The notes: generated by a model from the letters alone, not told the origin. 29,110 nucleotides of DNA from Deltaproteobacteria bacterium (GCA_029261955.1 JAJDAI010000831.1:1-29110), one strand, 5' to 3'; shown: positions 3 through 15,949, numbered from the stretch's first letter. Program-made: numbers and translations.

Positions 3-746
3 GGCATGGAAGGCAGCGACATCGGCGGCGCCTTCGCGGCCATCGACAAGGTGCTGCAGCCCATCAAGGACAACCTCGCCCTGGGCTACCGCATCGACTA
101 CGGCGGCCAGTACGAGGACATGGTCGAGGCCTTCATCGCGCTGACCGGCGCGCTGCTGCTCGCCATCCTGCTCGTCTACATGGTGATGGCGTCGCAGTTC
201 GAGGCCTTCGTGCAGCCCCTGGTCATCATGTTCACCCTGCCGCTGGCGATCATCGGCGTGGCGCTCACCCTGCTCGCGACCAGCACACCGGTCAGCGTGG
301 TGACCTTCGTCGGCTTGATCATGTTGGCAGGCATCGTGGTGAACAACGGCATCGTGCTGGTGGACTACATCAACCAGATGCGGCGCGAAGGCATGGACCG
401 GCGCACGGCCATCGTCAAGGGCGGCGCGACCCGCCTGCGCGCGGTGCTGATCACGTCGGGCACGACCATCGCCGGCCTGCTGCCCATGGCGCTCATCGCC
501 GGGCGGGGCAGCGAAATGACGGGCGACATGGCGCTCGTGGTCGCAGGCGGCTTGGCTGCGGCCAGCGTGTTGACGCTGCTGGTGGTGCCGGTGCTCTACG
601 AGTGGTTCGACACGCTGGGAAGCAAGGGCCAGGCCCTGCTCCAGCGGCTGGTGCACAGCGGGGACCTCCAAGAGGACGACCCCGAGCCCGAGATGAACGA
701 AGCGGACGCCGCGTTCGGCGCGCTGCCCGAAGGAAGCCCCTCATGA
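3..746 (+). CDS. RND efflux permease (AcrB/AcrD/AcrF family), C-terminal part; 5' end outside window
   Basis: C-terminal TM set with LAILLVYMVMASQFE, GIVVNNGIVLVDY, RLRAVLIT and GGL..ASVLTLLVVPVLY motifs; frame open to the window edge. Confidence 0.93.
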   Translation, partial: GMEGSDIGGAFAAIDKVLQPIKDNLALGYRIDYGGQYEDMVEAFIALTGALLLAILLVYMVMASQFEAFVQPLVIMFTLPLAIIGVALTLLATSTPVSVVTFVGLIMLAGIVVNNGIVLVDYINQMRREGMDRRTAIVKGGATRLRAVLITSGTTIAGLLPMALIAGRGSEMTGDMALVVAGGLAAASVLTLLVVPVLYEWFDTLGSKGQALLQRLVHSGDLQEDDPEPEMNEADAAFGALPEGSPS

Positions 747-2272
747 AGTGGTTGCTCTTGCTGTTGGTCCCGGCGCTCGCGTCGGCTCAGGAAGCCCCCT
801 CAATGGTGCAGGCGGCGGCATCAGCCCCGTCGCTGCGCCTGGAGGCTGCGCTGCACACCGCGCTGTCGGAGAACAAGAACCTCGTCACAGCCCAGGAGCT
901 GTTGCCGCAGGCCATGGCGAGCCGGGACAAGGCCTGGGCCTTCATCCAGCCGAACATCGACCTGGGCCTGCAGTACCGGGTGAACGACCGCGAGATCGCG
1001 TTCGACATGAGCGAGCTGGGCGATGGCCTCGGGGACGCCTTCGGCGGCATCTACGGGAACCTCGGCTTCATCTACGGGGAGCTGTTCCAGCTCGGCACCA
1101 TCGACGGCGATGACTGCAACAACCTCGCGGAGATCAACGGCTTCGCGGACTGCGCGGAGCTGACGAACGTGTTTCTGGAGGGCGGCGACATCGAGCCCGA
1201 CACCGACACGGACGACGCCGAGCCCACCGTCATCCAGCCGAAGGAGCAGTTCTTCTTCAACGCGCAGGTGAACTGGCCGCTCTCGCCGCGGGTGATCCCC
1301 CTCGCCGTGGCCGGCGAGCGCCAGGTGGACGCGGCGAAGGCGCAGCTCCAGCAGATCAAGGAGCAGGTGGTCTACGGGGTCGTGCAGGCCTACGCCGGCG
1401 CCTACGGAGCGCAGGAGAGCGTGGGGCTGCTGCTGAACCAGGTCGAGCTGGCGGCGGCGCACCACAAGGACACCGACGCGCTCTTCCGCGCGGGCGTGAT
1501 CACGAAGGACGTGCTGCTGCGCGCCCAGGTCGAGGAGCAGAAGATCATCCTGCAGCTCAAGCAGGCGCAGCAGGCTCACCGGACCGCGCGCCGTGGGCTC
1601 GGTCTGCTGATGGGCACGGGGATCGGCGGACACGGGCGGCTCGAGCCGCTGCCCGCCGTCGTCGTGGACACCGGCACGACGGGCGAGGACTGGGCCGAGG
1701 ACGCCATCGAGCACCGGCCCGAGGTGCGGGGCGCGCAGGCGCAGGCGCTGGCGGCAAAGAACATCTCGATCGACGCCGGGCTGCAGTTCCTGCCGACCGT
1801 CGCGTTCAGCGGCAACTACAACTGGACCGACCAGAGCGCCGGCTTCGACGACAAGCAGGGCGCGTGGTGGATCGGGGTCGGCGCGAGCATCCCGGTGTGG
1901 GACGGCGGCATCCGCGTGCACCAGGCGCGCGAGGCGGCGTCGCGGCAGCGGCAGGCCGTCGCCAACGTCGAGGCGCTGCGCCAGCAGGTCGCGGCCGAGG
2001 CCGAGGACGCCTGGGACGCCTGGCTCTCGGCGCAGGACTCGCTGCCTGTGGCCACCCTGGAGCGGGACCTCGCAGCGGAGGCCTTCCGGCTGGCCGAGGT
2101 CCGCTACCGCGCGGGCGCGTCGCGCCAGGTGGAGATCCTGGACGCACGCGCCGTGCTGCAGGGGGCCGAGCTGAGCCTGCTCCAGGCGCGGATCAGCGAG
2201 CGGGTGGCGGGCGTGCGCCTGATGCAGGCGGTCGGTGAGGCGCGGACCTGGGCGAACGGGCTCGGGGGCTGA
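743..2272 (+). CDS. TolC-family outer membrane efflux protein
   Basis: ATGA overlap with RND stop (743-746); signal peptide MKWLLLLLVPALASA; two OEP-like halves (LEAALHTALSENKNL..., RPEVRGAQAQ..., IPVWDGG, AEVRYRAGASRQVEILDARAVL). The track's upstream start at 602 lies inside the RND gene. Confidence 0.92.
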   Translation: MKWLLLLLVPALASAQEAPSMVQAAASAPSLRLEAALHTALSENKNLVTAQELLPQAMASRDKAWAFIQPNIDLGLQYRVNDREIAFDMSELGDGLGDAFGGIYGNLGFIYGELFQLGTIDGDDCNNLAEINGFADCAELTNVFLEGGDIEPDTDTDDAEPTVIQPKEQFFFNAQVNWPLSPRVIPLAVAGERQVDAAKAQLQQIKEQVVYGVVQAYAGAYGAQESVGLLLNQVELAAAHHKDTDALFRAGVITKDVLLRAQVEEQKIILQLKQAQQAHRTARRGLGLLMGTGIGGHGRLEPLPAVVVDTGTTGEDWAEDAIEHRPEVRGAQAQALAAKNISIDAGLQFLPTVAFSGNYNWTDQSAGFDDKQGAWWIGVGASIPVWDGGIRVHQAREAASRQRQAVANVEALRQQVAAEAEDAWDAWLSAQDSLPVATLERDLAAEAFRLAEVRYRAGASRQVEILDARAVLQGAELSLLQARISERVAGVRLMQAVGEARTWANGLGG

Positions 2273-2306: not shown

Positions 2307-2345
2307 TCGATCAATCGACAACTTTGTCCGGTAACACCCCGTAAT
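2307..2345 (+). promoter_or_regulatory. Possible promoter/operator upstream of radical SAM gene 1
   Basis: AT-richer patch in a 116-bp gap; short palindromes TCGAT-CA-ATCGA (2307-2318) and GACAA-CT-TTGTC (2317-2328); AAC-N17-CGTA (2320-2343) resembles ECF-sigma promoter spacing. Confidence 0.2.
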
Positions 2346-2388
2346 GCCGATGGTCGCCTCGCGCAGGGCTTCCTACCCTTCGCGCGTT

Positions 2389-3687
2389 ATGCACATCCAC
2401 TTCGTGTACCCCAGCTGGAAGCGCCCGAGCGAGAGCCACCCCGAGCTCGCGACGGTCAACGCCCACCCCTACATCGGCACGCCGTCCATGTCCGTGGCCG
2501 CGCTCGCCGCGAACACGCCGCCGGGCTGGACCTACTCGTTCCACGACGACCGCGTCGAGCGCATCGAGCCGGGCCCGGGGCCCGACCTCGTGGCCATGCC
2601 CATCTTCACGCCGGCTGCGGACCGCGCCATCGAGCTGGCAGACGGCTACCGCGCCGCGGGCGTGCCGGTCGTCGCGGGCGGCATCTTCACCTCGCTCATG
2701 CCCCACATCATCGCGCCTCACGTGGATGCGCTCTGCATCGGCGAGGGCGAAGGCGTCTGGCCGGTGATGCTGAACGACTTCGCGAACGGTTGCCTGAAGC
2801 CGGTCTACGAGGCGACCGAGCTCTGGGACCTGGCGAAGGCTCCGATCCCGAAGTACGAGCTCTACCTGGACTGGGTCGACGCGGTGCGCGACTCGGGCCT
2901 GGCGATCAACCCCGCCGTCGACTTCCCGCTCCAGCTGAGCCGCGGCTGCCCCATGGGCTGCTCGCACTGCGTCGTGCCCCACTACATGGGCCCGAAGCTG
3001 CGGCTGACGCCGCCGGAGCACATCCGGGCCTGCTTCGAGAAATTCGCGAGCATGGGCGGCCGCCGCGGCGCCACGCTGACCGAGGACACGACGATCCTGC
3101 CGGCCCGCGCCGTGCAGCAGCACCTCGTGGACGTGGCGAAGGCCTGCGAGGACATCGAGACCGAGATCGCCTACATCGGCTCGGGCCCCGAGTTCATCCA
3201 CATGGCGCCGCAGTCCTTTTGGGACTCCATGAGCTCCCTGAACGTGCACATGGTCTACCTGATGTTCGGTTTCGGGCACACGTCGCGCGACTCGACGAGC
3301 ATGAACGCCACCCCGAAGGCCATCGCCCACGCCGTCGAGACCATCAAGATGATCTCGGACCACGGCATGGAGGTGTACGGCTCCTTCTCCATCGGCCACG
3401 ACACCGAGGACGAGTCGGTCGCCGACCGGGTCCTGGAGATCTGCCACAAGGGCGAAGTCGAGGTCGCCGAGTTCGCGGTCGCGACGCCCTACCCCGGCAC
3501 GCGCGCCTGGAAGAAGCTGAGCAAGGAAGGCCGGATGCTCGACCGGCCCTTCGGCGACTTCAACGACGCCAACGTCGTGTTCCAGCCGGCCAACATGACG
3601 CCGGACGCGCTGCAGCAGACCTACCTGAACCTGTGGAAGGACTTCCACGCGGATCGGCCTACGTCGAAGTGGCCGGTGCAGATCTGA
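2389..3687 (+). CDS. Cobalamin-binding (class B-like) radical SAM protein 1
   Basis: N-terminal B12-binding fold (HFVYP..., VVAGGIFTSLMP, LCIGEGE); LSRGCPMGCSHC CxxxCxxC at 2947-2970; YGSFSIGHDTE and ATPYPGT motifs. Start placed at ATG 2389 (track start 2344). Confidence 0.9.
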   Translation: MHIHFVYPSWKRPSESHPELATVNAHPYIGTPSMSVAALAANTPPGWTYSFHDDRVERIEPGPGPDLVAMPIFTPAADRAIELADGYRAAGVPVVAGGIFTSLMPHIIAPHVDALCIGEGEGVWPVMLNDFANGCLKPVYEATELWDLAKAPIPKYELYLDWVDAVRDSGLAINPAVDFPLQLSRGCPMGCSHCVVPHYMGPKLRLTPPEHIRACFEKFASMGGRRGATLTEDTTILPARAVQQHLVDVAKACEDIETEIAYIGSGPEFIHMAPQSFWDSMSSLNVHMVYLMFGFGHTSRDSTSMNATPKAIAHAVETIKMISDHGMEVYGSFSIGHDTEDESVADRVLEICHKGEVEVAEFAVATPYPGTRAWKKLSKEGRMLDRPFGDFNDANVVFQPANMTPDALQQTYLNLWKDFHADRPTSKWPVQI

Positions 3688-3760: not shown

Positions 3761-4471
3761 TCAGGGGGCCGGCGGCCCGAAGCGGAAGTCCGCCGACAGG
3801 CGGCAGTCCCGGGTCCTCGTCGGCAGCCCCTGGTGCAGGGTGTAGACCCCGAAGAGCACGACGTCCCCCGGTTCCAGATCGGCGGTCGCCCAGGAGCCCT
3901 CGGGCACCGGATCCACCCCCTCCTCCGAGCGACGAAGCCCCGAGTGCGGCAGCAGCCCGGCGCGGTGGGATCGGGGCAGGATGGCCAGCGGCCCGCGCTC
4001 CAGGGGGCAGCGCTCCAGCGGCATCCAGGCGGCGACGAGCGGGCTGTCCCCGTCGAAGTAGTGGCGGTCCTGGTGGGGCCGGGTTCGGGCGCCGGTTCCG
4101 CGCACCCGCACGATGTCGCCGCGTCCCATCGTCGGCTCGCCGCCGAGCAGCGCCCGCACGACCGCCTGGAGCGCCGGGTGCCGCCGCAGCGCGTCCATCG
4201 GGGGGCTCGGGTAGACCACGCGCTGGAGCTGGATGTAGTCGGGGTCGTCGTAGTCGGGCGTGGGGCGGGTGAGCCCCTGCTCGTCCAGGCAGCCCAGCTC
4301 GGTGAGGGTCGCACGCACCAGGCTGCAGAGCGCCGCCGTCCTCGCCGGCTGGATGAGGCCCGGCAGGAAGAGGTAGCCGTCCGAGTCGTAGCGCGCCGCG
4401 AGCCGAGCCGGCGCGCCGAGCAGCGCCGTGCTGTCGACGAAGGGGTGGAAGCCGGGCGAGCTCAGGCCCAT
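3761..4471 (-). CDS. Phytanoyl-CoA dioxygenase (PhyH) family Fe(II)/2-oxoglutarate dioxygenase 1
   Basis: DGYLFLPGLI, HQD facial-triad motif, AWMPL, ILPRSH, PGDVVLF..YTLH, RLSADFRF; start overlaps the methyltransferase 3' end by 10 bp. Confidence 0.88.
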   Translation of the reverse strand: MGLSSPGFHPFVDSTALLGAPARLAARYDSDGYLFLPGLIQPARTAALCSLVRATLTELGCLDEQGLTRPTPDYDDPDYIQLQRVVYPSPPMDALRRHPALQAVVRALLGGEPTMGRGDIVRVRGTGARTRPHQDRHYFDGDSPLVAAWMPLERCPLERGPLAILPRSHRAGLLPHSGLRRSEEGVDPVPEGSWATADLEPGDVVLFGVYTLHQGLPTRTRDCRLSADFRFGPPAP

Positions 4472-5226
4472 GCCGTCCACCCCCTCCACCGCTCCGTGCG
4501 CCAGGAGCCCGGGGCGCAGGATGCCGCGACCTCAGCGAGCAGGGCGCGCCGGCGGGGCTCGTCCAGATCGGGGCGCATGGCCTCGGCGACCGGGGGCAGC
4601 GCCAGCCAGGCCGTGTAGGACTCGAAGCTCCAGGTCGTCTGCACGCTCCAGGGCTCGGGCCGCAGACCCACCCCCCGCAGCTGCTCCTCCAAGCCGGCGG
4701 CGTCGGGCAGCGGATCCCCCGCTTGCGGAGCGGTCGGACGACCGGCGACGAAGCGCTGCGCAGGCTCGACGAGGTGGGGGTCCGGCCCCCCGCCCGGCGC
4801 GTCCGGCTCCCCCAGGTAGGCAGCGGGAATGGCGAAGACGAGCGCCCCGCCCTCGGCGAGGCGGGCTCGAAGCTGGTCCAGCGCCTGCTCCAGCGGACCC
4901 AAGAGCCACAGCGATGCGCCGCACACGATCCGGTCGAAGCGTGCTTCGGGCAGGGACGTCAGCCAGGACACCCGGGGGTCGTCCAGCTCGGCAGCCTGCC
5001 GCATGGCGGCGGCGGGCTCCACGCAGCACAGCTCCGCTTCAGCGGGCAGCCGGGCCAGCAAGGCCCGCGCCGTGCCGCCGGTGCCCGCGCCGACGTCGAG
5101 CACGCGGCGGCTGCCCGCCAGGTCGGCGTGCTCCGCCAGCGCCGCGTTCACGGCGTGGTAGCGGTCGAAGCGGGCCCCGAAGTCCTGCCAGGCCTGCACC
5201 GTCTCGGCTCGATCCCAGGCGCTCAC
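4462..5226 (-). CDS. Class I SAM-dependent methyltransferase
   Basis: VLDVGAGTGG motif I, CVEPAAAMR, FDRIVC, LAEGGALVF; GTG start overlaps the radical SAM 2 stop (GTGA, 5223-5226). Confidence 0.88.
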   Translation of the reverse strand: MSAWDRAETVQAWQDFGARFDRYHAVNAALAEHADLAGSRRVLDVGAGTGGTARALLARLPAEAELCCVEPAAAMRQAAELDDPRVSWLTSLPEARFDRIVCGASLWLLGPLEQALDQLRARLAEGGALVFAIPAAYLGEPDAPGGGPDPHLVEPAQRFVAGRPTAPQAGDPLPDAAGLEEQLRGVGLRPEPWSVQTTWSFESYTAWLALPPVAEAMRPDLDEPRRRALLAEVAASCAPGSWRTERWRGWTAWA

Positions 5227-6635
5227 GCGGTCGCTGCCGGGGCGGAGGAGGGCTCCGGCGCGAAGAGCGGATCGCGCAGCAGACCCATGCGGGCGAGGTT
5301 GTGCTCCGCCTTGAAGACGAGGCAGCGCCCGATGGCCGCGCGCGTCTCCTCGTCGTAGCCAAAGAAGTCCAGGCCGAGGTTCGCGTCGTCGACGTAGTGG
5401 CGACGAAAGGCCTCGGGCTCGGCGATCGGCGGCGCCTCGACGTAGTGGCTGTAGGCCTCGTCCAGCCACCAGTCGGTGAAGCCGAAGCGCTCGTGGTGCT
5501 CCTCGTAGAGCGGCGTGCCCGGGAAGGGCACCGCGACACCGAGGGTGCTGAAGGTGTCCACCAGCGGCGCGATCCGCTGCATGAAGGCCAAGGTGTTCGC
5601 CAGCTCGGCCGGGCCCTCCTGCGGAAAGCCGAGCATGAAGTTCGCGGCCGTCTTCAGCCCCGCGTCCCGCGCCATGCGCAGCGCCGCCTCGACCTGGGCC
5701 GTGCTCACGCCCTTCTTGATGAGGCGGAGGATCCGGTCGTCGCCGCTCTCCACCCCGAAGTTCACGTGCACCAGCCCCGCCCGCTTCATCGTCGCCAGCA
5801 GCTCGGGGCTCACCATGGAGGCGCGGGTGATCGCGCTCCAGCGGGGGCGGAACTCCAGCCGTTCAATCCGCGCGCAGAGCGCCTCAAGCCGCTTGCGGTG
5901 GGCCGTGAGCGCGTCGTCCCAGAAGGGGAAGAAGCGCGTGCCGAAGGCGTCGTGGTGGGCCTGGAGCTCGTCGGCGACGTTGTCGTCGGAGCGGTAGCGA
6001 AAGCCCCGGCCGGTCACGTAGTTCGCACAGAAGGTGCACTTCGCCGGGCAGCCACGGCTCGTCAGCAGCCCGCCGGGCACCATCTGCCGGCCGCTCGGCT
6101 CGTACCAGGCGGGGTCGAAGAGGTGCTGGGCACGCTGGGGGAAGGCCAGGGCATCCAGGTCCGCGATGAAGCCGGCCGGCGCGGTGTGCACGGGGCCCGA
6201 GGGGGACGGGAGCACCAGCCCGGGCACCTCGCCCAGGTCGCGCCCGGTGCGGAGCGCCTCGACGAGCTGGACGAGGCTGTGCTCCGCTTCGCCGACGACG
6301 GCCACGTCGAAGCCCTCCCGCAGCGTCTCCTCGGGCCGGACCGTGGTGTGGGCGCCGCCAGCCACCAGCAGGGGCCCCGTGCCGACGAGCCGCCGGACGA
6401 GGCGGTAGGCGTGCCACACCCAGCGCGTGAAGAGCCCCAGCCCGACGACCTGCGGCTGGAAGCGCTCGATGCGCGCGAGGAGCTGGTCCTCGTCTTCATC
6501 GAAGTGGCGGGCGGCGGCGTCGATGACCTCGACCTCGCAACCCGCAGCCAGCAGCGCGGCGGCGACGTACTGCTGGCCCAGCAAGGGCGCCCCAAGCCGT
6601 TCGGGCGACGGGGGATTCAGCAGCAGGACGCGCAT
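5223..6635 (-). CDS. Cobalamin-binding (class B-like) radical SAM protein 2
   Basis: MRVLLLNPP, VAGGAHTT, VAVVGEAE; TSRGCPAKCTFC; PFWDDAL, NFGVESG, NFMLGFPQE, VPFPGTPLY. TTG at 6644 is an alternative start. Confidence 0.92.
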   Translation of the reverse strand: MRVLLLNPPSPERLGAPLLGQQYVAAALLAAGCEVEVIDAAARHFDEDEDQLLARIERFQPQVVGLGLFTRWVWHAYRLVRRLVGTGPLLVAGGAHTTVRPEETLREGFDVAVVGEAEHSLVQLVEALRTGRDLGEVPGLVLPSPSGPVHTAPAGFIADLDALAFPQRAQHLFDPAWYEPSGRQMVPGGLLTSRGCPAKCTFCANYVTGRGFRYRSDDNVADELQAHHDAFGTRFFPFWDDALTAHRKRLEALCARIERLEFRPRWSAITRASMVSPELLATMKRAGLVHVNFGVESGDDRILRLIKKGVSTAQVEAALRMARDAGLKTAANFMLGFPQEGPAELANTLAFMQRIAPLVDTFSTLGVAVPFPGTPLYEEHHERFGFTDWWLDEAYSHYVEAPPIAEPEAFRRHYVDDANLGLDFFGYDEETRAAIGRCLVFKAEHNLARMGLLRDPLFAPEPSSAPAATA

Positions 6636-6667
6636 CGCAGCCAAGGGCTCTCCGGCGGCTAGGGGGT

Positions 6668-6688
6668 CGTCACCGGGGTCCGGTGACG
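6668..6688 (-). terminator. Perfect inverted repeat just downstream of the Tat-protein stop (terminator or mRNA-stabilising stem)
   Basis: CGTCACCGG (6668-6676) / CCGGTGACG (6680-6688), 3-nt loop, 5 nt after the stop at 6694; no U-tract. Confidence 0.4.
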
Positions 6689-6693
6689 CACCA

Positions 6694-7527
6694 CTAGGGC
6701 AGCTCGGTGGGCTCCTGCGGGAGCGACTCGACGGCGCCGCCGCCGGGGATCCGCGTGATGCGCAGGAGGTGGCCGGGGGTCGAGATGTTGTCGCCAGCCA
6801 CGACGGGCCCGACGGGCACGTAGGGGGGCGCGAAGGTGGGCACGGGCCCGCCGCCGAGGATGCCCTCGACCATGGCGTCAGCGCTCCAGTCCTGGACCCT
6901 CTGGCCGACCCGCCAGGCGATGGCGTGCACGAGCGCGACGACCGGGTGTCCGCCCTTGATGGGCCCCTTGTCGAGCACGGACGAGGCCAGGGAGCCGGTC
7001 AGGCCGCTGGTGATCTTCGCGTAGCTGGCCGAGGACTCCGGCTGGAGCAGCACGGCGTCGCCTTCGGTGACGGGGGCCTCGGGCGCGGGCACGGCCGCGA
7101 AGTCGGGAAAGGCGTCCGAGGGGGGCAGGCTCCAGTCTGCAGCCCAGCCTTCCCAGGCTTCGGCCGCGGCCACCGCCAGCAGCGAGGCGCCGTCCTCTTC
7201 GACCCCGTCCGCGATCAGGCCGTCCTCGACGAGCAGCGCGACGTCCACCGGGCTGCTGAGGGAGCCGCCTTCGAGCGTGAGCGAGTTGATCTCCCCGTGG
7301 CCGTACTCGGCCTCGGAGAGCCAGGCGTTCCAGGCACCCGTGATCACGTCGGCCATGGCCTCGGCGTCCGCATCGAGCGCGGGGTTGCCGCGGTTCGGAG
7401 CTCCGTGGCCGTTGCCGCCTCGGGCTGCCGCGCCAGGCCGCGCGATGGCGGTGGCGGCGACGCCAGCGGAGAGGCCGAGGAGCACGTCGCGGCGGTTGGG
7501 GATTCGGTTGGGGTCGTCTTGGCTCAT
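6694..7527 (-). CDS. Hypothetical protein with twin-arginine (Tat) signal peptide
   Basis: NRRDVLLGLSAGVAATAIARPGAAA: RR, hydrophobic core, AxA site; GAGG 6 nt before ATG 7527 (alternative ATG 7533); acidic mature region with WxxW helices and C-terminal GGGPVPTFAPPYVPVGPVVAG. Confidence 0.8.
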   Translation of the reverse strand: MSQDDPNRIPNRRDVLLGLSAGVAATAIARPGAAARGGNGHGAPNRGNPALDADAEAMADVITGAWNAWLSEAEYGHGEINSLTLEGGSLSSPVDVALLVEDGLIADGVEEDGASLLAVAAAEAWEGWAADWSLPPSDAFPDFAAVPAPEAPVTEGDAVLLQPESSASYAKITSGLTGSLASSVLDKGPIKGGHPVVALVHAIAWRVGQRVQDWSADAMVEGILGGGPVPTFAPPYVPVGPVVAGDNISTPGHLLRITRIPGGGAVESLPQEPTELP

Positions 7528-7554
7528 GGTCATCCTCTTCTTGAGGATCGGACC

Positions 7555-8322
7555 TTAGACGACGACGGGGAAGCCTGTCCCCTTCAATCGACCGCCCTCG
7601 TCCAGGGGGAAGTGGACCCGCGAGGCGGGCGCGATCCGCTCGACATCGATGACGCACTCGGCGTCGAAGAGGTGAGCGACGACCGTCCTGCGGGCGCTCC
7701 CGCTTCGGTTCGGGGCGGAGCGGTGCCAGGTCCGCGGCGTGTGCACGCTGAGGTCCCCGGGCTGCAGGACCAGGGCCCCGCGCGAGGCATCCACCTGCGC
7801 GCGCTGCGCCGGGGCGAGGCCGGCGAGGCCGTCCTGGAGCATCGGCTCGCCGTGCAAGGAGTCGACCGGCTCGGGCCAGCGGTGGCTGCCGTCCAGCACC
7901 TCGAGGCCGCCTCGATCCAGGTCCTCGACCCCCAGGGCCAGGCGGACGGAGAGCACCCGGTCCGGCGCCAGGTAGCCCGTGTAGGAGGCGTCGCGATGCC
8001 AGGGCACCTCGCCCCCCATCCCCGCGGGCTTGCCGATGAGCGCGTCCTGCAGCAGGCGCACCTTGGGGGCCTCGAGCAGGGCCGAGGCGATGCGACCCAG
8101 CCGCCCGTCGAGCAGCCAGCGGCGCAGGTCGGCGTGGAGCCGAAAGGCCCCGGGGCGCTGGACGACAGGGGGCAAGCCGGTGGTGCCGATGCAGGCATCG
8201 AAGGCCGCACAGAGCCGGTCGACTTCGGGCTCTGGGACGACCTCTCGGAGCACCGCCCAGCCGTGCTCCAGCAGGTGGACCCGTGCCGCTGTGAGGGCCT
8301 CGTCGCTCGGTGCAGGGCTCAC
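7555..8322 (-). CDS. Phytanoyl-CoA dioxygenase (PhyH) family Fe(II)/2-oxoglutarate dioxygenase 2
   Basis: HGWAVLREVV, VPWHRD, LEVLDGSH, QPGDLSVH..RTWHRSAPNRS..ARR; GTG start overlaps the radical SAM 3 stop (GTGA, 8319-8322). Confidence 0.88.
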   Translation of the reverse strand: MSPAPSDEALTAARVHLLEHGWAVLREVVPEPEVDRLCAAFDACIGTTGLPPVVQRPGAFRLHADLRRWLLDGRLGRIASALLEAPKVRLLQDALIGKPAGMGGEVPWHRDASYTGYLAPDRVLSVRLALGVEDLDRGGLEVLDGSHRWPEPVDSLHGEPMLQDGLAGLAPAQRAQVDASRGALVLQPGDLSVHTPRTWHRSAPNRSGSARRTVVAHLFDAECVIDVERIAPASRVHFPLDEGGRLKGTGFPVVV

Positions 8323-9674
8323 GCCGGCTCGTCCGAGCCGTAGAACGCGGCGCTGAAGCGGCGCACCTCGGGCGACCAGCGCGCCGTCCAGCGGGCGTTC
8401 ACCCCCCGCTGCCACCGGTTGAAGCCGGCCAGCTCGGCCTCGCGCCCCACCCAGGCCTCGTGCGGGAGCATGGCCGTGGCCAGCTGGTGGTGGTCGCCGA
8501 CCTCGCGCCACCAGGTCGGGTGGTCGACGCGGGTGCCGAAGCGGCGGGCGTACTCGGGCAGGCGCCGGTAGGACTCGGTGCCCGGCAGCACGAAGAAGGT
8601 CTGAGCCGACAGCCAGCCGCTCGCCGGGCCGCCGCGCGGCATGAGGTCCTGCACGTAGGCGCGCGTCTCGGCCGCGGTCTCGGGCGTCTCGCCGGGGTAG
8701 TTGAAGAGCAGGTAGACGCCGTGGTGCAGGTCCTCTGCATCCGCGGCACGCAGCATCTCGGCGGACTTGCGCAGGTAGCGCGCGGGATCCGGGGCCTTCT
8801 CCATGAGGCCGGCCATGGTCTCGCTGCCGGTGTCGAGGCCGAAGTCGAGCTTGAAGTTGCAGCGCCGAAAGCGCGCCAGCAGCGCCGGCGTCATCAGGTC
8901 GGCCCTCGTCTCGGCCCAATACTGCACCGGCAAGCCCAGCTCCTCGAGGCCGGCGAGCAGCTCCTCCGTCCAGCTGCGGTGGGCCCCGAAGAGGGGGTCG
9001 GCGAAGGCGATGGAGCGCGGGCTGCGCGCCCGGTAGACGGTCTCGATGATCCGGAGCGCGTCCGCCACCGAGTAGCGCGAGGTCCTGCTGCCTCGCAGTG
9101 GCTCGATGCAGAAGCGGCAGCGGTAGGGGCAGCCGCGGCTCAGGGCGATCCAGACCGCGCCGCCGTGATCGCTGCGCCCGTAGTTGGGCCAGTCGATGTG
9201 GTCGTGTCCGCCCAGGGCCAGGGGGTTGCCGGCCAGGACGATCGTGCGAGGGGGGCGACGCGGCGGATCTGCGCACAGCGAGCGCAGGGGGTGCTCGCCG
9301 TCGCCGGTGACGACCCAGTCCGCCAGCCCCTCGAAGTCCGAGGGCATGCCGGTGGCGTGGTGCCCGCCCACCACGATGGGCAGCTCCGGCCGCACGCGGC
9401 GCAGGTGTTCGATGATCGCGACCGTGCCGAGGTAGTGCAGGCTCGTCCAGCAGGAGATGCCGACCAGCCGGGTGTCGTCCTGGAGCGCCTCGTCGAGCCG
9501 GGAGAGGGCCTCATCCAGGTCGCCGCCGCGGTCCAGCTCCAGCTGCGCCACACCGCAGAGGTCGCTGACGAAGCCCGCCAGGCTGTCCAGGTGCGGCTTG
9601 CCCGCCTCGCGGTTGGACCACCAGCCGTGGCCGTGCAGCACGGGCGGGGCGATGAGCAGGAGCTGGAATGTCAC
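8319..9674 (-). CDS. Cobalamin-binding (class B-like) radical SAM protein 3
   Basis: LLIAPP, VGISCWTS, IVVGGHHAT, VVTGDGE; LSRGCPYRCRFC; FADPLF, LFNYPGET, FVLPGT. Confidence 0.9.
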   Translation of the reverse strand: MTFQLLLIAPPVLHGHGWWSNREAGKPHLDSLAGFVSDLCGVAQLELDRGGDLDEALSRLDEALQDDTRLVGISCWTSLHYLGTVAIIEHLRRVRPELPIVVGGHHATGMPSDFEGLADWVVTGDGEHPLRSLCADPPRRPPRTIVLAGNPLALGGHDHIDWPNYGRSDHGGAVWIALSRGCPYRCRFCIEPLRGSRTSRYSVADALRIIETVYRARSPRSIAFADPLFGAHRSWTEELLAGLEELGLPVQYWAETRADLMTPALLARFRRCNFKLDFGLDTGSETMAGLMEKAPDPARYLRKSAEMLRAADAEDLHHGVYLLFNYPGETPETAAETRAYVQDLMPRGGPASGWLSAQTFFVLPGTESYRRLPEYARRFGTRVDHPTWWREVGDHHQLATAMLPHEAWVGREAELAGFNRWQRGVNARWTARWSPEVRRFSAAFYGSDEPA

Positions 9675-9683
9675 ACGGGGAGC

Positions 9684-10856
9684 CTACCCGCCCGCCCCGG
9701 GGGCCGGGTCGGAACGGGGGGGTTGGGCGGTCCCGTCAGGACTCGGGGGGCTGTCCTCCATCGGAGGCGAAACCCTGACCCCCATCCGCTGCAAATCCCC
9801 CAGGAGCCGCGCGGGCTCCACGGCCTGCGCCATCGTGCTCACGCCCAGGGGCCGGCTGCCATCCGCCCACTGCAGCAACCAGGCGGCCACGGGGATCGCG
9901 GTGAGGTCGTAGCCGTCTTCGTGGCCCAGCTGGAGGACCAGCTGCTCTCGCTCGCTCTGCACCTCCAGCCGCAGCAGCGTGCCGAAAGGCGGGCGCGACC
10001 CCCTCCGCAGACTCCAGCACAGCAGGCGGGCCAGGGGCCCTTCGAGCAGCCCGGGCAGCAGCTTCATCCCCACCAGGACCAGCGGGATGACCAGGTAGTC
10101 GGTGATGGGGTCGAAGCCGCCGACGTAGAAGCCGCAGGAGGTCAGCTGGGGGTACATCTGCGGCAGCGGCCGGAGCTCCTCGAGGAACATCGGCACACAC
10201 ACCTGCTCCCCCCAGGGCGGCCCGAAGTCGAAGCGCGGGCTGCCCCGACCGGTCCAGGACATCGATCGCCACGACCCCTCGACCAGGTGCTTCGAGTCGT
10301 AGTCGGCGAACTCCCGGACCATCTCGCGCGCCGTCTCGGACACGATCTCCAGCCCGCGCCAGTCGATCTGGATGACGCTGCTCACCTGCGCCCGGAAGGC
10401 GCCCGGCACGCGCTCGGCGCCGTAGCGGATCAGCGCCGCGGGAACACCCGGGTGGAAGCCCGCGTCGGTGATCGCGCAGAGATCCGCCGCCTCGAAGAGG
10501 TCCGAGGCAGCGAACAAGCGGGCGACCTTCTCCGCGGAGAGCTGGATGTCCAGGTAGTCGGTCCCGGTGGCCAGGCAGGCCTCGATCGCCACGTCCACAA
10601 ACTCCGAGGTGCTGGAGGCGGCGACCAGCAAGTCGACATCCCGGAGCGCTGCCTCCATCGATGCACGCGAGGAGGCGTCGACGGACAGGGGCGTGCAGCG
10701 CTCCCCGAGCTGCCCAGCCAGCGCCTCCAAGGGCGCCGAGCGGCGACCGGCGGCCACGACCCGAGCCTCAGGGACTTCGGCCAGGAGCAGTCGAGCGATG
10801 CGGGACCCCGTGTTTCCCGAGGCACCGAGGATCAAGACGGTCGGCGATCGGCTCAT
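9684..10856 (-). CDS. Saccharopine dehydrogenase-like NAD(P)-binding oxidoreductase
   Basis: VLILGASGNTG Rossmann motif, VVAAGRR, GTDYLDI, DAGFHPGV; GGAGG 5 nt before ATG 10856. Confidence 0.85.
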   Translation of the reverse strand: MSRSPTVLILGASGNTGSRIARLLLAEVPEARVVAAGRRSAPLEALAGQLGERCTPLSVDASSRASMEAALRDVDLLVAASSTSEFVDVAIEACLATGTDYLDIQLSAEKVARLFAASDLFEAADLCAITDAGFHPGVPAALIRYGAERVPGAFRAQVSSVIQIDWRGLEIVSETAREMVREFADYDSKHLVEGSWRSMSWTGRGSPRFDFGPPWGEQVCVPMFLEELRPLPQMYPQLTSCGFYVGGFDPITDYLVIPLVLVGMKLLPGLLEGPLARLLCWSLRRGSRPPFGTLLRLEVQSEREQLVLQLGHEDGYDLTAIPVAAWLLQWADGSRPLGVSTMAQAVEPARLLGDLQRMGVRVSPPMEDSPPSPDGTAQPPRSDPAPGAGG

Positions 10857-10909
10857 CGCGTCCTCCGACCCCCAGCCTACGGCGAGGTCGAATCCGGGAC
10901 ACCGCGTGA

Positions 10910-12451
10910 TCACCCCCTCGCGAGCGCCGCCCCCACGTGCAGCCCCATCGCGTAGATCGACACCTGGGGCGGCACGCCGATCGAGCTCGGGAAGAGCGAG
11001 CCATCGGCCACCCACAGCCCCTGGAGGTGGTGGTGCTTGCCATCCGAGCCGACCGGGGACTTCGCCGGATCGTCGCCCATCGGCACCGAGCCCATGGGGT
11101 GCACCGCCGTGAGGTCGGGGGTGTCGGCCGCGATCTCCGCCTGCAGCGCGTCCAGGTCGTCGTCGGCCCGAAGGACACGCAGCCCACCCGCGGGCACGAA
11201 GACCGACTCCGCGCCGGCCGCGAAGAGCAGCTTCGCGCAGGCGACGACCCCGAAGGCCACCTCGCGCCGATCCGCCTCGATGGGCTCGTAGTCGATGCGC
11301 AGCCCGAGGTCCCCGCGCGGGCGAACCCGCCCCATCGTCAGGTCGTGGACCATGGGCGTGAAGACAGCCAGGCGCTCGTAGGCGGACATGAGCCGGCGGT
11401 GCTCCGCGCCGAGCCCCGGCACCATCGTCGCGGTGCCCACGGGGTGCGCGAAGGCCGGCACGATCCAGGTGCGCGTGCCGATGGGCGGTTCGGCCCCCTC
11501 CTCGGCGTAGGCCCGCTCGAAGTCGAGGAACTCGGTGCACTCGACGGTCTGGGGGATGCCTTCCCAGGCGCGCACGGGCTCCGCGAACTCCCCCGCCGCG
11601 ACGGGCGCCGGGTGGATGCGCAGGGTTCGGCCGGTCTTGCCGCTCGGGTCGGGCACGTCGGAGCGAAGCAGGATCGCCGGCGTGCCCGTGGCCGAGGCGG
11701 AGACGCAGACCCTCGATGCAACGACCGAGAACTCACCGACCGGCCGCCGGTGCACGGGATCCAGCACGACCCCCTCGACCCCCGTCACCGCACCGCCGGC
11801 GTGCAGCACCCGCACCGCCTGGCAGCGGCTCAGCACCTGGCCCTTGGCGGCGATCAGGCGGGGGAGCAGCACCTTGTTGGCGTTGTTCTTCGCGTCGTAG
11901 GCGCAGCCGAGCAGGCAGAAGCCGCTGCCCAGGCAGCCGGTGCGGTTGTGCTTCAGCCCGCCGGCCTTCCAGCCCAGCTTCGCGGCCCCGGAAGCCAGCA
12001 GCTGGTTGTGCCGATTCCGCCGCGCGACCTCGACCTCGGACACCCCGAGCAGCGACTCCGCCGCCCGGTAGAGCTGCTCCCAGCGCGAAGGCGGCAGCTT
12101 CTCCATCCCGTGCAGCCGCGCCCACTCCCGGCGGATGGGCTCGGGGATGCGCGCGCAGAGGTTGATGTTGTGCACGGTGGACCCGCCCACCGCGCGTCCC
12201 TGGTGGATGCGCACCCGCCGGTCCGCGCTGGTCTGCCCGCCGTTCGCGGTCAACAGCTCGGGGAGCATCTGCTCCTCGCGCTGGGTCATGGCCGAGGGAG
12301 GTACAAACGCGCCGGACTCCAGGACCACGACGCTCAGCCCCGCCTCCGCGGCCGTGGTCGCTGCCGCCATGCCGCCGGCGCCCGAACCGATCACGCAGAC
12401 GTCGGCCTCCAGCTTCAGCGGCAACGAGAGAGTCGAGGCGTCGAAGATCAC
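10910..12451 (-). CDS. GMC-family FAD oxidoreductase
   Basis: VIGSGAGG, VLESG, QGRAVGGSTVHN, CLGSGFCLLGC..DAK, HPMG, VADGSLFPSS; GTG start overlaps the upstream stop (GTGA, 12448-12451); no signal peptide. Confidence 0.92.
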   Translation of the reverse strand: MIFDASTLSLPLKLEADVCVIGSGAGGMAAATTAAEAGLSVVVLESGAFVPPSAMTQREEQMLPELLTANGGQTSADRRVRIHQGRAVGGSTVHNINLCARIPEPIRREWARLHGMEKLPPSRWEQLYRAAESLLGVSEVEVARRNRHNQLLASGAAKLGWKAGGLKHNRTGCLGSGFCLLGCAYDAKNNANKVLLPRLIAAKGQVLSRCQAVRVLHAGGAVTGVEGVVLDPVHRRPVGEFSVVASRVCVSASATGTPAILLRSDVPDPSGKTGRTLRIHPAPVAAGEFAEPVRAWEGIPQTVECTEFLDFERAYAEEGAEPPIGTRTWIVPAFAHPVGTATMVPGLGAEHRRLMSAYERLAVFTPMVHDLTMGRVRPRGDLGLRIDYEPIEADRREVAFGVVACAKLLFAAGAESVFVPAGGLRVLRADDDLDALQAEIAADTPDLTAVHPMGSVPMGDDPAKSPVGSDGKHHHLQGLWVADGSLFPSSIGVPPQVSIYAMGLHVGAALARG

Positions 12452-14064
12452 CGCAGCGCCCCCCTCGGGTCCTGGCCAACCGGCGCCACGAGGGCGGCGT
12501 AGCGCCCCGGCGCCCCGGTCCCGCCCGGCGGCACCCACGGCCCGCGGTAGCCCAGCTCGCCCCAGGTCCGCGCGTCCTGGTACCAACCCAAGAGGCAGAG
12601 GTCCCGGACCCCGCGCGCCGCGTCCGCCATCAGCCCGCCGAACCACTCCAGGCGCTCGAGGAAGCGCCGACGCCCCGCAGGATCCAGCTGCGTGAGCCGC
12701 GAGAGGTGACCGTCCAGCGCGGTGCCCTGCTCGAGCAGCTCGAACATGCCGTGGACCTCGAGCAGCATCGGCGCGGGCATGCCGGCCAGGTAGCGGTCCA
12801 CGGCGGAGGCGAGCTCCTGCCCCGAGGGCCCATCGGCCGGCAAGGGCCCGGGCTCGTCGGGCACCACCGCCTCGGCCGCCGCGGCGATCGCCAGGGCTTC
12901 GTGCCGAGTCAGGACGAGCCCCTCCCAGTCCTCGAAGCCCCCATAACCGACGAGGTGCCGGTAGCCCGCGATCCCCACCGCCAGCGCCGCGCCGCCCACC
13001 AGGACCCGGCGACGGGACCAGCCGCGCCCCGAATCCAGACGCCGCAGCAGCCTCGGGGGCAACCGACCGCGCCACCCCGGCTCCACAGGCAGCTCGCCGC
13101 GGTGCGAGGTCAGCCAGTACAGGACGCGCTTGCCCTGCCAGGTCGGGGCCTCGGCCCGCATCGCGGCGAGGGCCTTGCCGCCGTAGATGGGCTCAGCGCG
13201 CAGGCCGGCCGAGGCGAGCCAGGCCACCGCGCCCGCCGACTCGGGGCTGATGTGCCCGTAGCCTGCCCCCACAAAACCCCGCACCGCCTGGAGGTCCGGC
13301 ATCGGCAGATCCGAGGGGACGGGCAACCCGCTCGACCGGAGAAAGGCCAGGACCTGGTCCCGGTGGTGCCGGAGCGCGCCGTTCGTCACGAAGACCCGCT
13401 CGACTGTCGCCACGGCACGCACGGGGATCGGCCGGCCCGCGAGCGCCAGGCCCAGCGCCGTGCCGACCGCCGTGCCGCCGGTGCCCCAGGGCACGAAGAC
13501 GACGTCAGGCTCGGGGATCTCACCGGCCTCGATCTGCGCGGCCAGCTCCAGCCCGCCCGACAGGCTGCCCACGACGCCCTCCGGCACGGTGCCGCCGGGC
13601 GGGATGGCCGGGATCGGCCCGTCGCGCTTCCCGAACAGGACCCGCGTGCAGCGAAAGGCCAGCTCCAGCCGGCTCCCGCAGAACAGGACGTCGGTGGGGC
13701 CCGAGGCGATGCAGGCGAGGTTCTCCAGGACCGGCTCAGAGCTCGGCTCCCAGAAGCAGTGCGCCTCCAGCCTCCGCCCCAGGCGCGCGGCCGCGAGCGT
13801 CATGGCCACCAGGTGCCCTGAGCCGATGGCCCCCACCGAAGCCCAGGTCTGCGCGGAGACGAAGGGCTCCTGCGCGAGCAGGAAGTCGAGCTTGCGGACC
13901 TTGTTCCCACCCTGGAGCGGCCCGATCTGGTCGTCCCGTTTGACGCCGAACCAGGAGAAGCCGAGCTCCGCGGCCTGCTCCGGCAGCTCGGTCACGGGCG
14001 TGGGGGCTTCGATCCACCCCAGGCGGGGCAGCACATCGAGCGTCGATTGAGTCCAGGGGGGCAC
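12448..14064 (-). CDS. Fusion: PLP-dependent ACC deaminase/D-cysteine desulfhydrase-family domain + gluconate 2-dehydrogenase subunit 3-like domain
   Basis: N-terminal ~330 aa: PTPV, VKRDD, GGNKVRKL (PLP Lys55), GTGGT, EPIYGGKA. C-terminal: SRRRVLVGGAALAVGIAG, AAAEAVVP, VDRYL, FLERL, LCLLGWYQDARTW..LGY.GP. One uninterrupted frame. Confidence 0.8.
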   Translation of the reverse strand: MPPWTQSTLDVLPRLGWIEAPTPVTELPEQAAELGFSWFGVKRDDQIGPLQGGNKVRKLDFLLAQEPFVSAQTWASVGAIGSGHLVAMTLAAARLGRRLEAHCFWEPSSEPVLENLACIASGPTDVLFCGSRLELAFRCTRVLFGKRDGPIPAIPPGGTVPEGVVGSLSGGLELAAQIEAGEIPEPDVVFVPWGTGGTAVGTALGLALAGRPIPVRAVATVERVFVTNGALRHHRDQVLAFLRSSGLPVPSDLPMPDLQAVRGFVGAGYGHISPESAGAVAWLASAGLRAEPIYGGKALAAMRAEAPTWQGKRVLYWLTSHRGELPVEPGWRGRLPPRLLRRLDSGRGWSRRRVLVGGAALAVGIAGYRHLVGYGGFEDWEGLVLTRHEALAIAAAAEAVVPDEPGPLPADGPSGQELASAVDRYLAGMPAPMLLEVHGMFELLEQGTALDGHLSRLTQLDPAGRRRFLERLEWFGGLMADAARGVRDLCLLGWYQDARTWGELGYRGPWVPPGGTGAPGRYAALVAPVGQDPRGALR

Positions 14065-14191
14065 CGGCGAACGCTAGCGGTTCGTCGGGCTGCTCCGCAC
14101 GGACACTCCGGGGTCTCACCCGGGCCATTCAACCCCCGCGCGCCCACCTCGGCCTTGCGATAGAAGGGCGCCAGAACCCCGTGGAGCACCC

Positions 14192-15949
<1,758 letters not shown>

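What the first reader, a model, noticed from the sequence alone, without database searches (positions are those of the whole stretch)
6694..7527. Tat-exported protein of unknown function at the centre of the radical SAM cluster: candidate modified substrate or orphan injection-system-type protein
Seen in sequence: a clear Tat signal; an acidic mature chain; three pseudo-repeated Trp-bearing helices (ADVITGAWNAWLSEA, AVAAAEAWEGWAADW, AWRVGQRVQDWSADA), each followed by Gly/Pro-rich segments; and a Pro-rich C-terminal motif LGGGPVPTFAPPYVPVGPVVAG (6793-6858). From unverified recollection, near-identical GxGPxPTFAPPYVPVGPVVxG tails and FPxFAAxPxPxAP segments occur in uncharacterised proteins encoded near VgrG/baseplate genes of contractile-injection-type loci in myxobacteria and relatives. 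No such genes are in this window, and I recall no Tat signal on those proteins. Tat exports folded proteins, so one hypothesis is that flanking B12-radical SAM and 2OG enzymes modify this protein (C-methylation, Pro/Trp hydroxylation) in the cytoplasm before export.
Basis: partly seen in the sequence, partly recalled or inferred. Interest (0 to 1): 0.75.

Follow-up and report, generated by a model that had tools for sequence, protein, structure and literature searches.

The report
Exported protein tailored by radical-SAM enzymes
This is a real gene for an exported protein of a large, unnamed family that sits beside a vitamin-B12 radical-SAM enzyme in most well-flanked loci, usually with a methyltransferase and an oxygenase, so it is most likely their protein substrate; relatives in other bacteria are wired to injection-spike (PAAR) genes instead of the Tat export signal.

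Summary
Window 6694-7527/7533 (minus strand) encodes a 277/279-aa protein with a twin-arginine N-terminus, an acidic Cys-free mature chain, three long Trp-bearing helices and the motif LGGGPVPTFAPPYVPVGPVVAG at 6793-6858.

It belongs to a family of about 390 sequence clusters with no Pfam, NCBIfam, PHROG or PDB relative and no known fold. The family shares a ~200-aa domain with two near-invariant Pro-rich motifs and no conserved catalytic-type residue.

Across phyla the gene lies in a cassette X / B12-radical SAM / SAM methyltransferase / PhyH oxygenase. A B12-rSAM relative is present in 27 of 43 well-flanked species loci. In Myxococcota clades the oxygenase and methyltransferase are replaced by non-orthologous ones.

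A complex prediction gives weak support (0.55 versus best control 0.11) for both invariant motifs docking into the rSAM.

The recalled injection-system link is real for other clades, but not for this copy. PAAR lies next to X in 26 of 78 loci, DUF2169 in 6, and one protein is a PAAR-like/X fusion. No VgrG or baseplate gene was found in the flanks sampled.

Best reading (about 0.55): X is modified in the cytoplasm by the flanking enzymes and then exported by Tat. The function of the mature protein is unknown. Other first-reader notes of this scan cover the same DNA; nothing like it was noted on other DNA.

The parts
6694..7533 (-). Gene X: exported protein of an unnamed family (279 aa from ATG 7533; more likely 277 aa from ATG 7527)
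   Evidence: GC3 0.92; translation; RBS spacing; about 390 homolog clusters
7423..7533 (-). Twin-arginine signal region (residues 1-37; RR = residues 14-15 at 7489-7494; candidate AxA sites 29-31 and 35-37)
   Evidence: RR plus h-region conserved in ten relatives. Only Tat models hit at E <= 0.05, own score below cut-off, ortholog above
6784..7386 (-). Conserved ~200-aa domain (residues 50-250): three long helices, each followed by a beta-hairpin; no known fold
   Evidence: Homology spans residues ~57-257. AF2 pLDDT above 90 for 50-230. No fold match
7072..7113 (-). Motif 1, AFPDFAAVPAPEAP (residues 141-154), near-invariant P143, A147, P151, A153, P154
   Evidence: Alignment A1; in the predicted interface with the rSAM
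6793..6858 (-). Motif 2, LGGGPVPTFAPPYVPVGPVVAG (residues 226-247), the most conserved stretch of the family; proposed modification site
   Evidence: Invariant G229, P232, P236, P237 and 15 near-invariant positions. 12-mer identical in 141 of 258 proteins. Residues 230-246 in the predicted interface
6659..6697 (-). GC-rich hairpin (9-bp perfect stem) in the 49-nt spacer between the X stop and the rSAM start; no U tract
   Evidence: dG -26.5 kcal/mol, z -2.9; not conserved in L001 (10-nt spacer)
5223..6644 (-). B12-binding radical SAM enzyme (rSAM_B), the family-wide partner of X
   Evidence: PF02310 2.9e-20, PF04055 3.5e-25; CPAKCTFC at 199; 58-80% identical orthologs directly after X in other phyla
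4462..5226 (-). Class I SAM methyltransferase, start overlaps the rSAM_B stop (GTGA)
   Evidence: Pfam Methyltransf_23/12/25/11; junction; conserved in the cassette
3761..4489 (-). PhyH-family Fe(II)/2OG oxygenase 1 (cassette member)
   Evidence: PF05721 1e-19; HQD at 139; conserved after the MT
7555..8322 (-). PhyH-family oxygenase 2, specific to the window's clade, directly upstream of X
   Evidence: PF05721 6e-21; 57-59% orthologs in L001 and L007; GTGA overlap with rSAM_C
8319..9674 (-). B12-binding radical SAM enzyme (rSAM_C), clade-specific addition
   Evidence: PF02310 and PF04055; CPYRCRFC at 182; 68-69% orthologs in L001 and L007
2344..3687 (+). Third, divergent B12-radical SAM gene (rSAM_A), convergent with the operon; link to X uncertain
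   Evidence: Weak Pfam hits (34.7 and 28.4 bits); CPMGCSHC at 202; no counterpart in L001

Best explanation
X is a folded, acidic, Cys-free protein. Its two near-invariant Pro/Val/Ala-rich loops (residues 141-154 and 226-247) are the sites acted on by the flanking enzymes.

Proposed order of events: X is made in the cytoplasm. The B12-radical SAM enzyme encoded just downstream binds the loops and methylates unactivated carbons. The SAM methyltransferase and the PhyH Fe(II)/2OG oxygenase add further methyl and hydroxyl groups. In this clade a second rSAM/PhyH pair adds more. The finished, folded protein is then exported by the Tat pathway.

Shown: the gene, the family, the motifs, the conserved gene order and intact enzyme motifs. 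Inferred: that X is the substrate, the chemistry, and the export route. The job of the mature protein outside the cytoplasm is unknown. Fusions in relatives point to the cell envelope or to delivery to other cells.
For: (1) Gene order. X / B12-rSAM / MT / PhyH recurs in at least six phyla as a four-gene unit with changing surroundings. Of 43 species loci with at least 5 kb on both sides, 27 hold an rSAM_B relative.

(2) Same enzyme set by non-orthologous genes. In Myxococcota clades the set is rebuilt from a 360-aa MT, an O-methyltransferase, a P4H-type 2OG oxygenase and a 38-49% identical B12-rSAM. This points to a shared task centred on X.

(3) No other substrate gene. The minimal cassette leaves no room for another: X overlaps or abuts its neighbours.

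(4) Conserved residues. They are G, P, A, V, F, W and Y, with T/S at residue 233 seen in the alignment; no conserved D, E, H, K, R or C. That is unlike an enzyme.

(5) Copy numbers. Several loci carry two X genes, and genomes carry up to 3 X copies. The one multi-copy genome also checked for the rSAM (G041, 2 X copies) has a single rSAM_B-like hit above 40% identity. This is as expected for substrates.

(6) Complex prediction of rSAM_B with X(50-279). Median score 0.55, best of 3 controls 0.11, verdict 'weak support'. The mark was reached by 51 of 78 solved complexes and 2 of 108 mismatched pairs, but at 0.60 or under only 5 solved pairs reached it, as did all 4 mismatches that passed. The X side of the interface is 81-86, 138-154 and 230-246, that is both motifs. 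The enzyme side draws on the B12 domain, the rSAM barrel and the C-terminal part.

(7) Enzymes look active. CxxxCxxC is present in all three rSAMs and HxD in both PhyH proteins.

(8) Export. Tat-type N-termini occur in several cassette-linked lineages: the window's clade, L051/L056 (Armatimonadota), P0009, and probably P0045/P0049. Tat carries folded proteins (established knowledge). This suits a protein finished by cytoplasmic, oxygen-sensitive, cofactor-bearing enzymes.
Against: No modification has been observed; everything rests on synteny and a weakly supported model.

In 10 of 43 well-flanked loci X has none of these neighbours. One such genome showed no rSAM_B relative at all (G042).

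In the window's class two genomes have ~40% identical rSAMs but no X.

Some relatives carry Sec-type signals (P0053). That fits less well with maturation before export.

The window's own Tat score is below the curated cut-off.

A 200-aa folded substrate with an invariant 'core' is unlike most RiPP precursors.
Confidence: 0.55

Rival explanations
1. X is a large RiPP-type precursor. The folded N-terminal domain serves as a leader or recognition domain. After modification and export the C-terminal piece around GPVPTFAPPYVPVGPVV is cut off as a small, heavily modified peptide. This is a sub-case of 'substrate' with a different end product.
For: The enzyme set (B12-rSAM C-methyltransferase type, SAM MT, 2OG hydroxylase) matches that of proteusin pathways (established knowledge). 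X sits first in the cassette, like a precursor gene. The conserved motif lies near the C-terminus. A hairpin follows the X stop here.
Against: No peptidase or peptidase-exporter gene is conserved in the cassette. There is no NHLP or Nif11 leader. Motif 1 lies inside the well-folded domain (pLDDT above 90). In some relatives 350 aa follow the motif. The 'core' is invariant, whereas RiPP cores usually vary.
Confidence: 0.15
2. The enzymes make or alter a small molecule. X is not their substrate but a partner: a binding or carrier protein, a scaffold for the rSAM, or a self-protection protein exported to the periplasm.
For: B12-rSAM, MT and PhyH enzymes are common in small-molecule pathways; the best NCBIfam hits of rSAM_B include BchE and HpnJ, all below cut-off. 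The window adds reductase, GMC oxidoreductase and PLP genes upstream. A predicted X-rSAM interface would also fit a scaffold.
Against: The upstream PLP, GMC and reductase genes are absent from the nearest relatives' loci. The minimal cassette has no scaffold-forming enzyme for a small molecule. Tat, PAAR-like, CARDB and PG_binding_1 fusions make X an exported payload rather than a cytoplasmic helper. X copies outnumber the enzymes.
Confidence: 0.18
3. The window's X is cargo of a contractile injection or type VI system, and the Tat-like N-terminus is not used.
For: Relatives lie next to PAAR (26 of 78 loci) and DUF2169 (6 loci), and one is fused to a Tox-PAAR-like domain. The genome has PAAR and Phage_GPD hits on other contigs.
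Against: There is no PAAR, DUF2169 or VgrG gene in the 29-kb window. The window's X groups with the signal-less cassette clade, not with the PAAR-linked clades (quick tree). It lacks the MPxP... N-terminal extension of the PAAR-linked proteins and has a conserved RR signal instead.
Confidence: 0.05
4. X is an unrelated neighbour of the enzyme genes and the shared location is chance.
For: 19 of 78 loci show none of the neighbours.
Against: The same order recurs in six phyla with otherwise unrelated flanks. Junctions are tight: 10-60 nt or overlapping.
Confidence: 0.02

Closest known systems
Proteusin pathways (polytheonamide-type: precursor with NHLP leader, B12-radical SAM C-methyltransferases PoyB/PoyC, N-methyltransferase PoyE, Fe/2OG hydroxylase PoyI); from established knowledge, not tested here
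   Same: A ribosomal product is encoded next to B12-rSAM, SAM methyltransferase and 2OG oxygenase genes. Val- and Pro-rich target sequence. A large non-core part of the precursor.
   Different: No NHLP or Nif11 leader. No radical SAM epimerase gene was recognised, and no peptidase or exporter recurs in the minimal cassettes. The 'core' is invariant across phyla. X is a 200-aa folded domain with a Tat signal. One motif lies inside the fold.
Protein-level C-methylation by B12-radical SAM enzymes on methyl-coenzyme M reductase (Mmp10; glutamine C-methyltransferase TIGR04014)
   Same: A class B rSAM acts on a whole protein rather than on a short peptide. rSAM_B hits TIGR04014 at 104 bits.
   Different: The score is far below the cut-off of 360. 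The substrate here is an exported protein of unknown role, with added MT and oxygenase steps.
PAAR / DUF2169 / DUF4150-linked cargo effectors of type VI secretion
   Same: Many X relatives are encoded beside PAAR and DUF2169, or are fused to a PAAR-like domain at the position where toxin domains sit.
   Different: The window's copy has a Tat signal and no spike genes nearby. No immunity gene or toxic activity is evident. No VgrG or baseplate was found in the flanks sampled. Coupling of such cargo to radical SAM enzymes was not found in the searched literature.
Exported proteins finished before or during export with protein-derived cofactors (for example the QhpC subunit of quinohemoprotein amine dehydrogenase, cross-linked by radical SAM QhpD); from established knowledge
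   Same: A radical SAM enzyme modifies a protein in the cytoplasm before it leaves the cell.
   Different: QhpC is small and Cys-rich, and is cross-linked by a SPASM-type rSAM. X has no Cys, and its partner is a B12-type rSAM.

Membership tests
Tat (twin-arginine) export substrates | N-terminal (S/T)-R-R-x-F-L-K-like motif, moderately hydrophobic h-region, AxA site | tested here: met
   N-R-R-D-V-L-L-G-L, a Gly/Ala/Ser/Thr h-region, then AIA and AAA; conserved in ten relatives
Tat (twin-arginine) export substrates | Score above the curated cut-off of a Tat-signal model (TIGR01409) | tested here: inconclusive
   Own N-terminus: only TIGR02811, 13.2 bits, E 0.087. Ortholog P0003: TIGR01409 17.9 against 16.7. 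Eight others are below cut-off, but only Tat models hit at E <= 0.05
Tat (twin-arginine) export substrates | tatC-dependent export | not testable with these tools
   Needs an export assay
Proteusin / NHLP-type RiPP precursors | Nitrile-hydratase-like or Nif11 leader domain | tested here: not met
   No Pfam or NCBIfam hit for X
Proteusin / NHLP-type RiPP precursors | Adjacent B12-rSAM C-methyltransferase-type, MT and 2OG hydroxylase genes | tested here: met
Proteusin / NHLP-type RiPP precursors | Leader removal by a conserved peptidase or peptidase-exporter | tested here: not met
   No such gene in the cassette in the window or in L003, L005, L006, L097
T6SS/CIS spike-associated cargo (PAAR, DUF2169, VgrG neighbourhood) | Encoded beside PAAR, VgrG or an adaptor, or fused to a PAAR-like domain | tested here: not met
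   Not met for the window's copy: none in the 29 kb; PAAR and Phage_GPD hits are on other contigs. Met for other clades: PAAR 26 of 78, DUF2169 6 of 78, fusion P0204
Class B (B12-binding) radical SAM enzymes (the neighbour rSAM_B) | N-terminal B12-binding domain plus CxxxCxxC radical SAM core | tested here: met
   PF02310 2.9e-20, PF04055 3.5e-25; CPAKCTFC. No curated subfamily reaches its cut-off
Tat-signal small subunits of GMC-type dehydrogenases (gluconate 2-dehydrogenase subunit 3 type) | Match to the family profile | tested here: not met
   No Pfam family at all for X at E <= 0.01. The GMC gene is three genes away and absent from the closest relatives' loci

The most novel reading that the evidence does not exclude
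X defines a new class of secreted proteins whose function depends on B12-radical-SAM, methyltransferase and oxygenase tailoring of two invariant Pro-rich loops. Different lineages send the same tailored domain out by Tat, by Sec, or on PAAR-tipped injection spikes. This would be the first case of radical-SAM-matured secretion-system cargo.
Probability: 0.3. Interest if true: 0.85.

Novelty: new variant of a known kind. Interest (0 to 1): 0.72.

Why it matters
Radical SAM tailoring is known for short peptides (RiPPs) and for a few cytoplasmic enzymes. Here the likely target is a folded, exported 200-aa domain of unknown fold that is spread over many phyla, nearly all of them uncultured.

If confirmed, this would add a new substrate class for B12-radical SAM enzymes. 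It would also give a function to a family of several hundred 'hypothetical proteins'. And it would link protein tailoring to export by Tat and to PAAR/DUF2169 spike loading. That link was not found in the literature searched.

The four-gene minimal cassette is small enough for direct heterologous testing.

Tried and rejected
Family and fold searches that found nothing:
- Pfam, NCBIfam and PHROGs on X.
- Profile search of PDB sequences: best E 0.78.
- Foldseek against PDB and BFVD: nothing at E <= 0.001.
- AFDB clusters and ESM Atlas: only unnamed family members.
- VIA-align wide: best Z 6.8 (ECF S-components), within the stated noise range.
- Language-model atlas: no usable hit.

Other checks:
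- Internal three-fold repeat by hhalign: weak only.
- Fusion partners in longer relatives: mostly no domain; CARDB, Tox-PAAR-like and PG_binding_1 in a few.
- VgrG or baseplate genes next to PAAR-linked X: none in the flanks sampled. They held Hsp70-like, aminotransferase, DUF3160, HEAT, kinase and cytochrome genes.
- An N-terminal 'LLHQTLGNAFVQ' motif in L012, P0043 and P0055 reminded me of DUF4157-type proteins, but Pfam gave no hit.
- Class-level co-occurrence of X and rSAM_B: too few positives. Two genomes with ~40% identical rSAMs lack X, so it is inconclusive.
- Genomes with 'orphan' X: 3 of 4 have an unlinked rSAM_B relative. This is suggestive only.
- RNA evidence: no RNA run holds the stretch; it occurs in biofilm metagenome DNA runs of one study.
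- Literature: no paper on the motif, or on DUF2169/PAAR together with radical SAM.
- The complex prediction gave 'weak support' only and is used as a hint, not as proof.
- The careful phylogeny did not finish; the quick tree is cited.

Full report
**The gene.** The window is 72% GC, so open frames alone mean little. Codon-position GC picks out the real genes. The minus-strand frame 6694-7554 has GC3 0.92 and GC2 0.54.

Two ATGs are possible starts, at 7533 and 7527. The GAGG box lies 6 nt before the second, so 7527 (277 aa) is the likelier start. I number residues from 7533.

**The gene's surroundings in the window.** Pfam gives the following map:
- 3-746 (+): AcrB C-terminal part
- 821-2272 (+): outer-membrane efflux protein
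- 2344-3687 (+): B12-rSAM_A
- 3761-4489 (-): PhyH1
- 4462-5226 (-): SAM methyltransferase
- 5223-6644 (-): B12-rSAM_B
- 6694-7533 (-): X
- 7555-8322 (-): PhyH2
- 8319-9674 (-): B12-rSAM_C
- 9684-10907 (-): saccharopine-dehydrogenase-like reductase
- 10910-12445 (-): GMC oxidoreductase
- 12448-14064 (-): PLP enzyme

GTGA start/stop overlaps join rSAM_B to the MT and rSAM_C to PhyH2. All three rSAMs keep CxxxCxxC, and both PhyH proteins keep HxD.

**Checking the observation.**
- The N-terminus reads N-R-R-D-V-L-L-G-L. A Gly/Ala/Ser/Thr-rich stretch follows, then AIA and AAA.
- The RR and the hydrophobic stretch are kept in ten relatives.
- When the ten N-termini are scanned against 18,950 NCBIfam models, the only hits at E <= 0.05 are Tat-signal models. 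The window's own score is below cut-off (13.2 bits, E 0.087). Ortholog P0003 passes TIGR01409 (17.9 against 16.7).
- The mature chain has pI 4.1, no Cys and seven Trp.
- The three quoted Trp segments lie in three long predicted helices (51-73, 113-133, 198-219), each followed by a beta-hairpin.
- As sequence repeats they are only weakly supported.
- The C-terminal motif is at 6793-6858, as stated.

**The family.** X has no Pfam, NCBIfam or PHROG match. It does have 381 to 392 homologous clusters at E <= 0.001 in two large protein collections. The shared part is residues ~57-257.

An alignment of 96 members (A1) shows two near-invariant stretches:
- (F/Y)PxFAA(V/F)PxPxAP, residues 141-154
- GxGPVPTFAPPYVPVGPVVxG, residues 227-247

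The 12-mer PTFAPPYVPVGP is identical in 141 of 258 collected proteins. The conserved residues are G, P, A, V, F, W and Y. No acidic, basic, His or Cys position is conserved. That argues against an enzyme.

AlphaFold2 with this alignment gives a confident model (mean pLDDT 84.5; above 90 over residues 50-230; 65-80 over motif 2). No library gives a known fold: PDB by Foldseek and by VIA-align (best Z 6.8, within noise), BFVD, AFDB clusters, ESM Atlas, and PDB sequences by profile.

**Gene neighbourhoods.**

*The four-gene cassette.* The closest relatives (64-67% identity, L001 and L007) keep the order rSAM_C / PhyH2 / X / rSAM_B / MT / PhyH1. They do not keep the reductase, GMC or PLP genes, so those are a separate module.

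More distant relatives (30-38% identity) occur in Bryobacteraceae, Chthonomonadales, an 8-Mb genome, and a Tat-bearing one. Each forms a four-gene unit X / B12-rSAM / MT / PhyH amid unrelated flanks.

*Counts over 78 species-level loci.* A scan of one genome per species gave 80 loci. Note that this scan was seeded with the motif. I searched the loci with the window's proteins and with neighbour families that I clustered and named by Pfam.

| Neighbour of X | All 78 loci | 43 loci with >= 5 kb on both sides |
|---|---|---|
| rSAM_B relative | 41 | 27 |
| any of the methyltransferases | 46 | 26 |
| 2OG oxygenase | 28 | 17 |
| PAAR | 26 | 15 |
| DUF2169 | 6 | 5 |
| none of these | 19 | 10 |

*Non-orthologous replacement.* In Kofleriaceae and Haliangiales clades the enzyme set is rebuilt from different genes:
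- a 360-aa methyltransferase upstream of X
- a Methyltransf_2 O-methyltransferase
- a P4H-type 2OG oxygenase (PF13640/PF13661)
- a B12-rSAM only 38-49% identical to rSAM_B

The same three enzyme classes around the same protein, supplied by non-orthologous genes, is the strongest comparative argument that the enzymes and X work together.

*Copy numbers.* Several loci hold two X genes. Genomes hold up to three X copies. G041 has two X copies but only one rSAM_B-like hit above 40% identity. Three of four genomes whose X has no such neighbour have an unlinked rSAM_B relative (55, 45 and 44% identity), one of them with the MT beside it.

**Substrate or partner?** The minimal cassette has no other candidate substrate gene and no room for a hidden small one.

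One complex prediction was allowed. rSAM_B with X(50-279) scored a median of 0.55 against 0.11 for the best of three controls, and the tool's verdict is 'weak support'. The mark was reached by 51 of 78 solved complexes and 2 of 108 mismatched pairs. At 0.60 or below, however, such passes are more often wrong than right unless the pair was already likely.

The confident contacts on X are residues 81-86, 138-154 and 230-246, that is both invariant motifs. On the enzyme they come from the B12 domain, the radical SAM barrel and the C-terminal part. I take this as a hint in the expected direction, not as evidence of binding.

**Where the domain works.** Relatives join the X domain to different export devices:
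- Tat-type signals in several cassette-linked lineages: the window's clade, Armatimonadota L051/L056 (with a further 350 aa after the domain), and P0009
- a Sec-type signal plus CARDB (P0053)
- an N-terminal PG_binding_1 domain in two Burkholderiales cassettes (E 1e-11 and 3e-13)
- a Tox-PAAR-like domain, with X in the C-terminal 'payload' position (P0204, 31.2 bits at the cut-off of 31)

Bryobacterales-type members have no signal at all. The common thread is that X is a payload that leaves the cytoplasm.

**The recalled injection-system link.** It is real but partial.
- The 107-aa neighbour family is PAAR (PF05488, E 4e-19).
- Another neighbour family is DUF2169 (E 2e-91), a known type VI adaptor family.
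- In L011 and L054, PAAR, X, DUF2169, an O-methyltransferase and the B12-rSAM lie co-directionally side by side.
- I found no VgrG or baseplate gene in the flanks sampled.

In a quick tree the window's X forms a fully supported group with L001 and L007. That group lies on a long branch inside the clade of signal-less cassette proteins, apart from the PAAR-linked Myxococcota clades (the careful search did not finish).

The window has no PAAR, DUF2169 or VgrG gene. The genome's PAAR and Phage_GPD hits are on other contigs. The genome is a 79.6% complete assembly from a biofilm metagenome and holds one X copy. X is patchy among relatives: 1 of 14 same-family genomes and 6 of 111 in the class.

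**Verdict.** A further 0.15 goes to the variant in which a modified peptide is released. The second hypothesis (injection-system protein) fits sister clades but not this copy.

The chemistry (C-methylation, O- or N-methylation, hydroxylation on the Pro/Val/Tyr loops) is inferred from enzyme classes only. The role of the mature protein is unknown. No paper on this family or on this coupling was found. I rate it a new variant of a known kind: ribosomal products tailored by radical SAM enzymes.

Noticed in passing
window 6659-6697 (minus strand RNA): A 9-bp perfect GC hairpin (GUCACCGG-ACC-CCGGUGAC core) fills the 49-nt spacer between the X stop and the rSAM_B start (dG -26.5, z -2.9). No U tract follows. 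It might raise the level of X message over the enzyme message. It is not present in L001, where the spacer is 10 nt.
   Followed up: partly
L004, L009, L041: A different, conserved context for X-family genes: FtsK / X / unknown 403-aa protein / RNase E/G, with no tailoring or spike genes. These X proteins carry the MPGPQP... N-terminal extension.
   Followed up: partly
L050, L052, L067, L071, L058: Two X-family genes per locus. Genome G028 has three copies. Some hits in G026, G028 and G030 cover only profile positions ~19-204 (no motif 2) and lie in very long open frames of 613-1678 aa. These may be fusions or high-GC artefacts.
   Followed up: no
L011 (Desulfobacterales MAG) 8066-15570: A co-directional run of genes: PAAR / methyltransferase / X / DUF2169 / O-methyltransferase / B12-rSAM / DUF2169. 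This is the clearest locus joining spike accessories and radical SAM tailoring.
   Followed up: partly
L012, P0043, P0055 N-termini: X-family members with an N-terminal '...LLHQTLGNAFVQRML...' stretch. From memory it resembles the start of DUF4157-type proteins seen near contractile injection loci. Pfam gave no hit.
   Followed up: partly
window 9684-14064: The reductase, GMC oxidoreductase and PLP-enzyme genes upstream of the cluster are absent from the closest relatives' loci (L001, L007), so they look like a separate module.
   Followed up: no
window 2344-3687 (+): The third B12-radical SAM gene is divergent (Radical_SAM 34.7 bits, B12-binding 28.4 bits, the latter below cut-off) and convergent with the operon. 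It has no counterpart in L001.
   Followed up: no
window 14192-15949 (+): A 585-aa protein with eight MopE-type putative metal-binding repeats (PF11617, E 5e-62) lies just outside the cluster.
   Followed up: no
L093 (G043:C3) 6565-8834: An rSAM_B relative (55% identity) plus the methyltransferase stand alone without an adjacent X gene. The genome's X is on another contig.
   Followed up: partly
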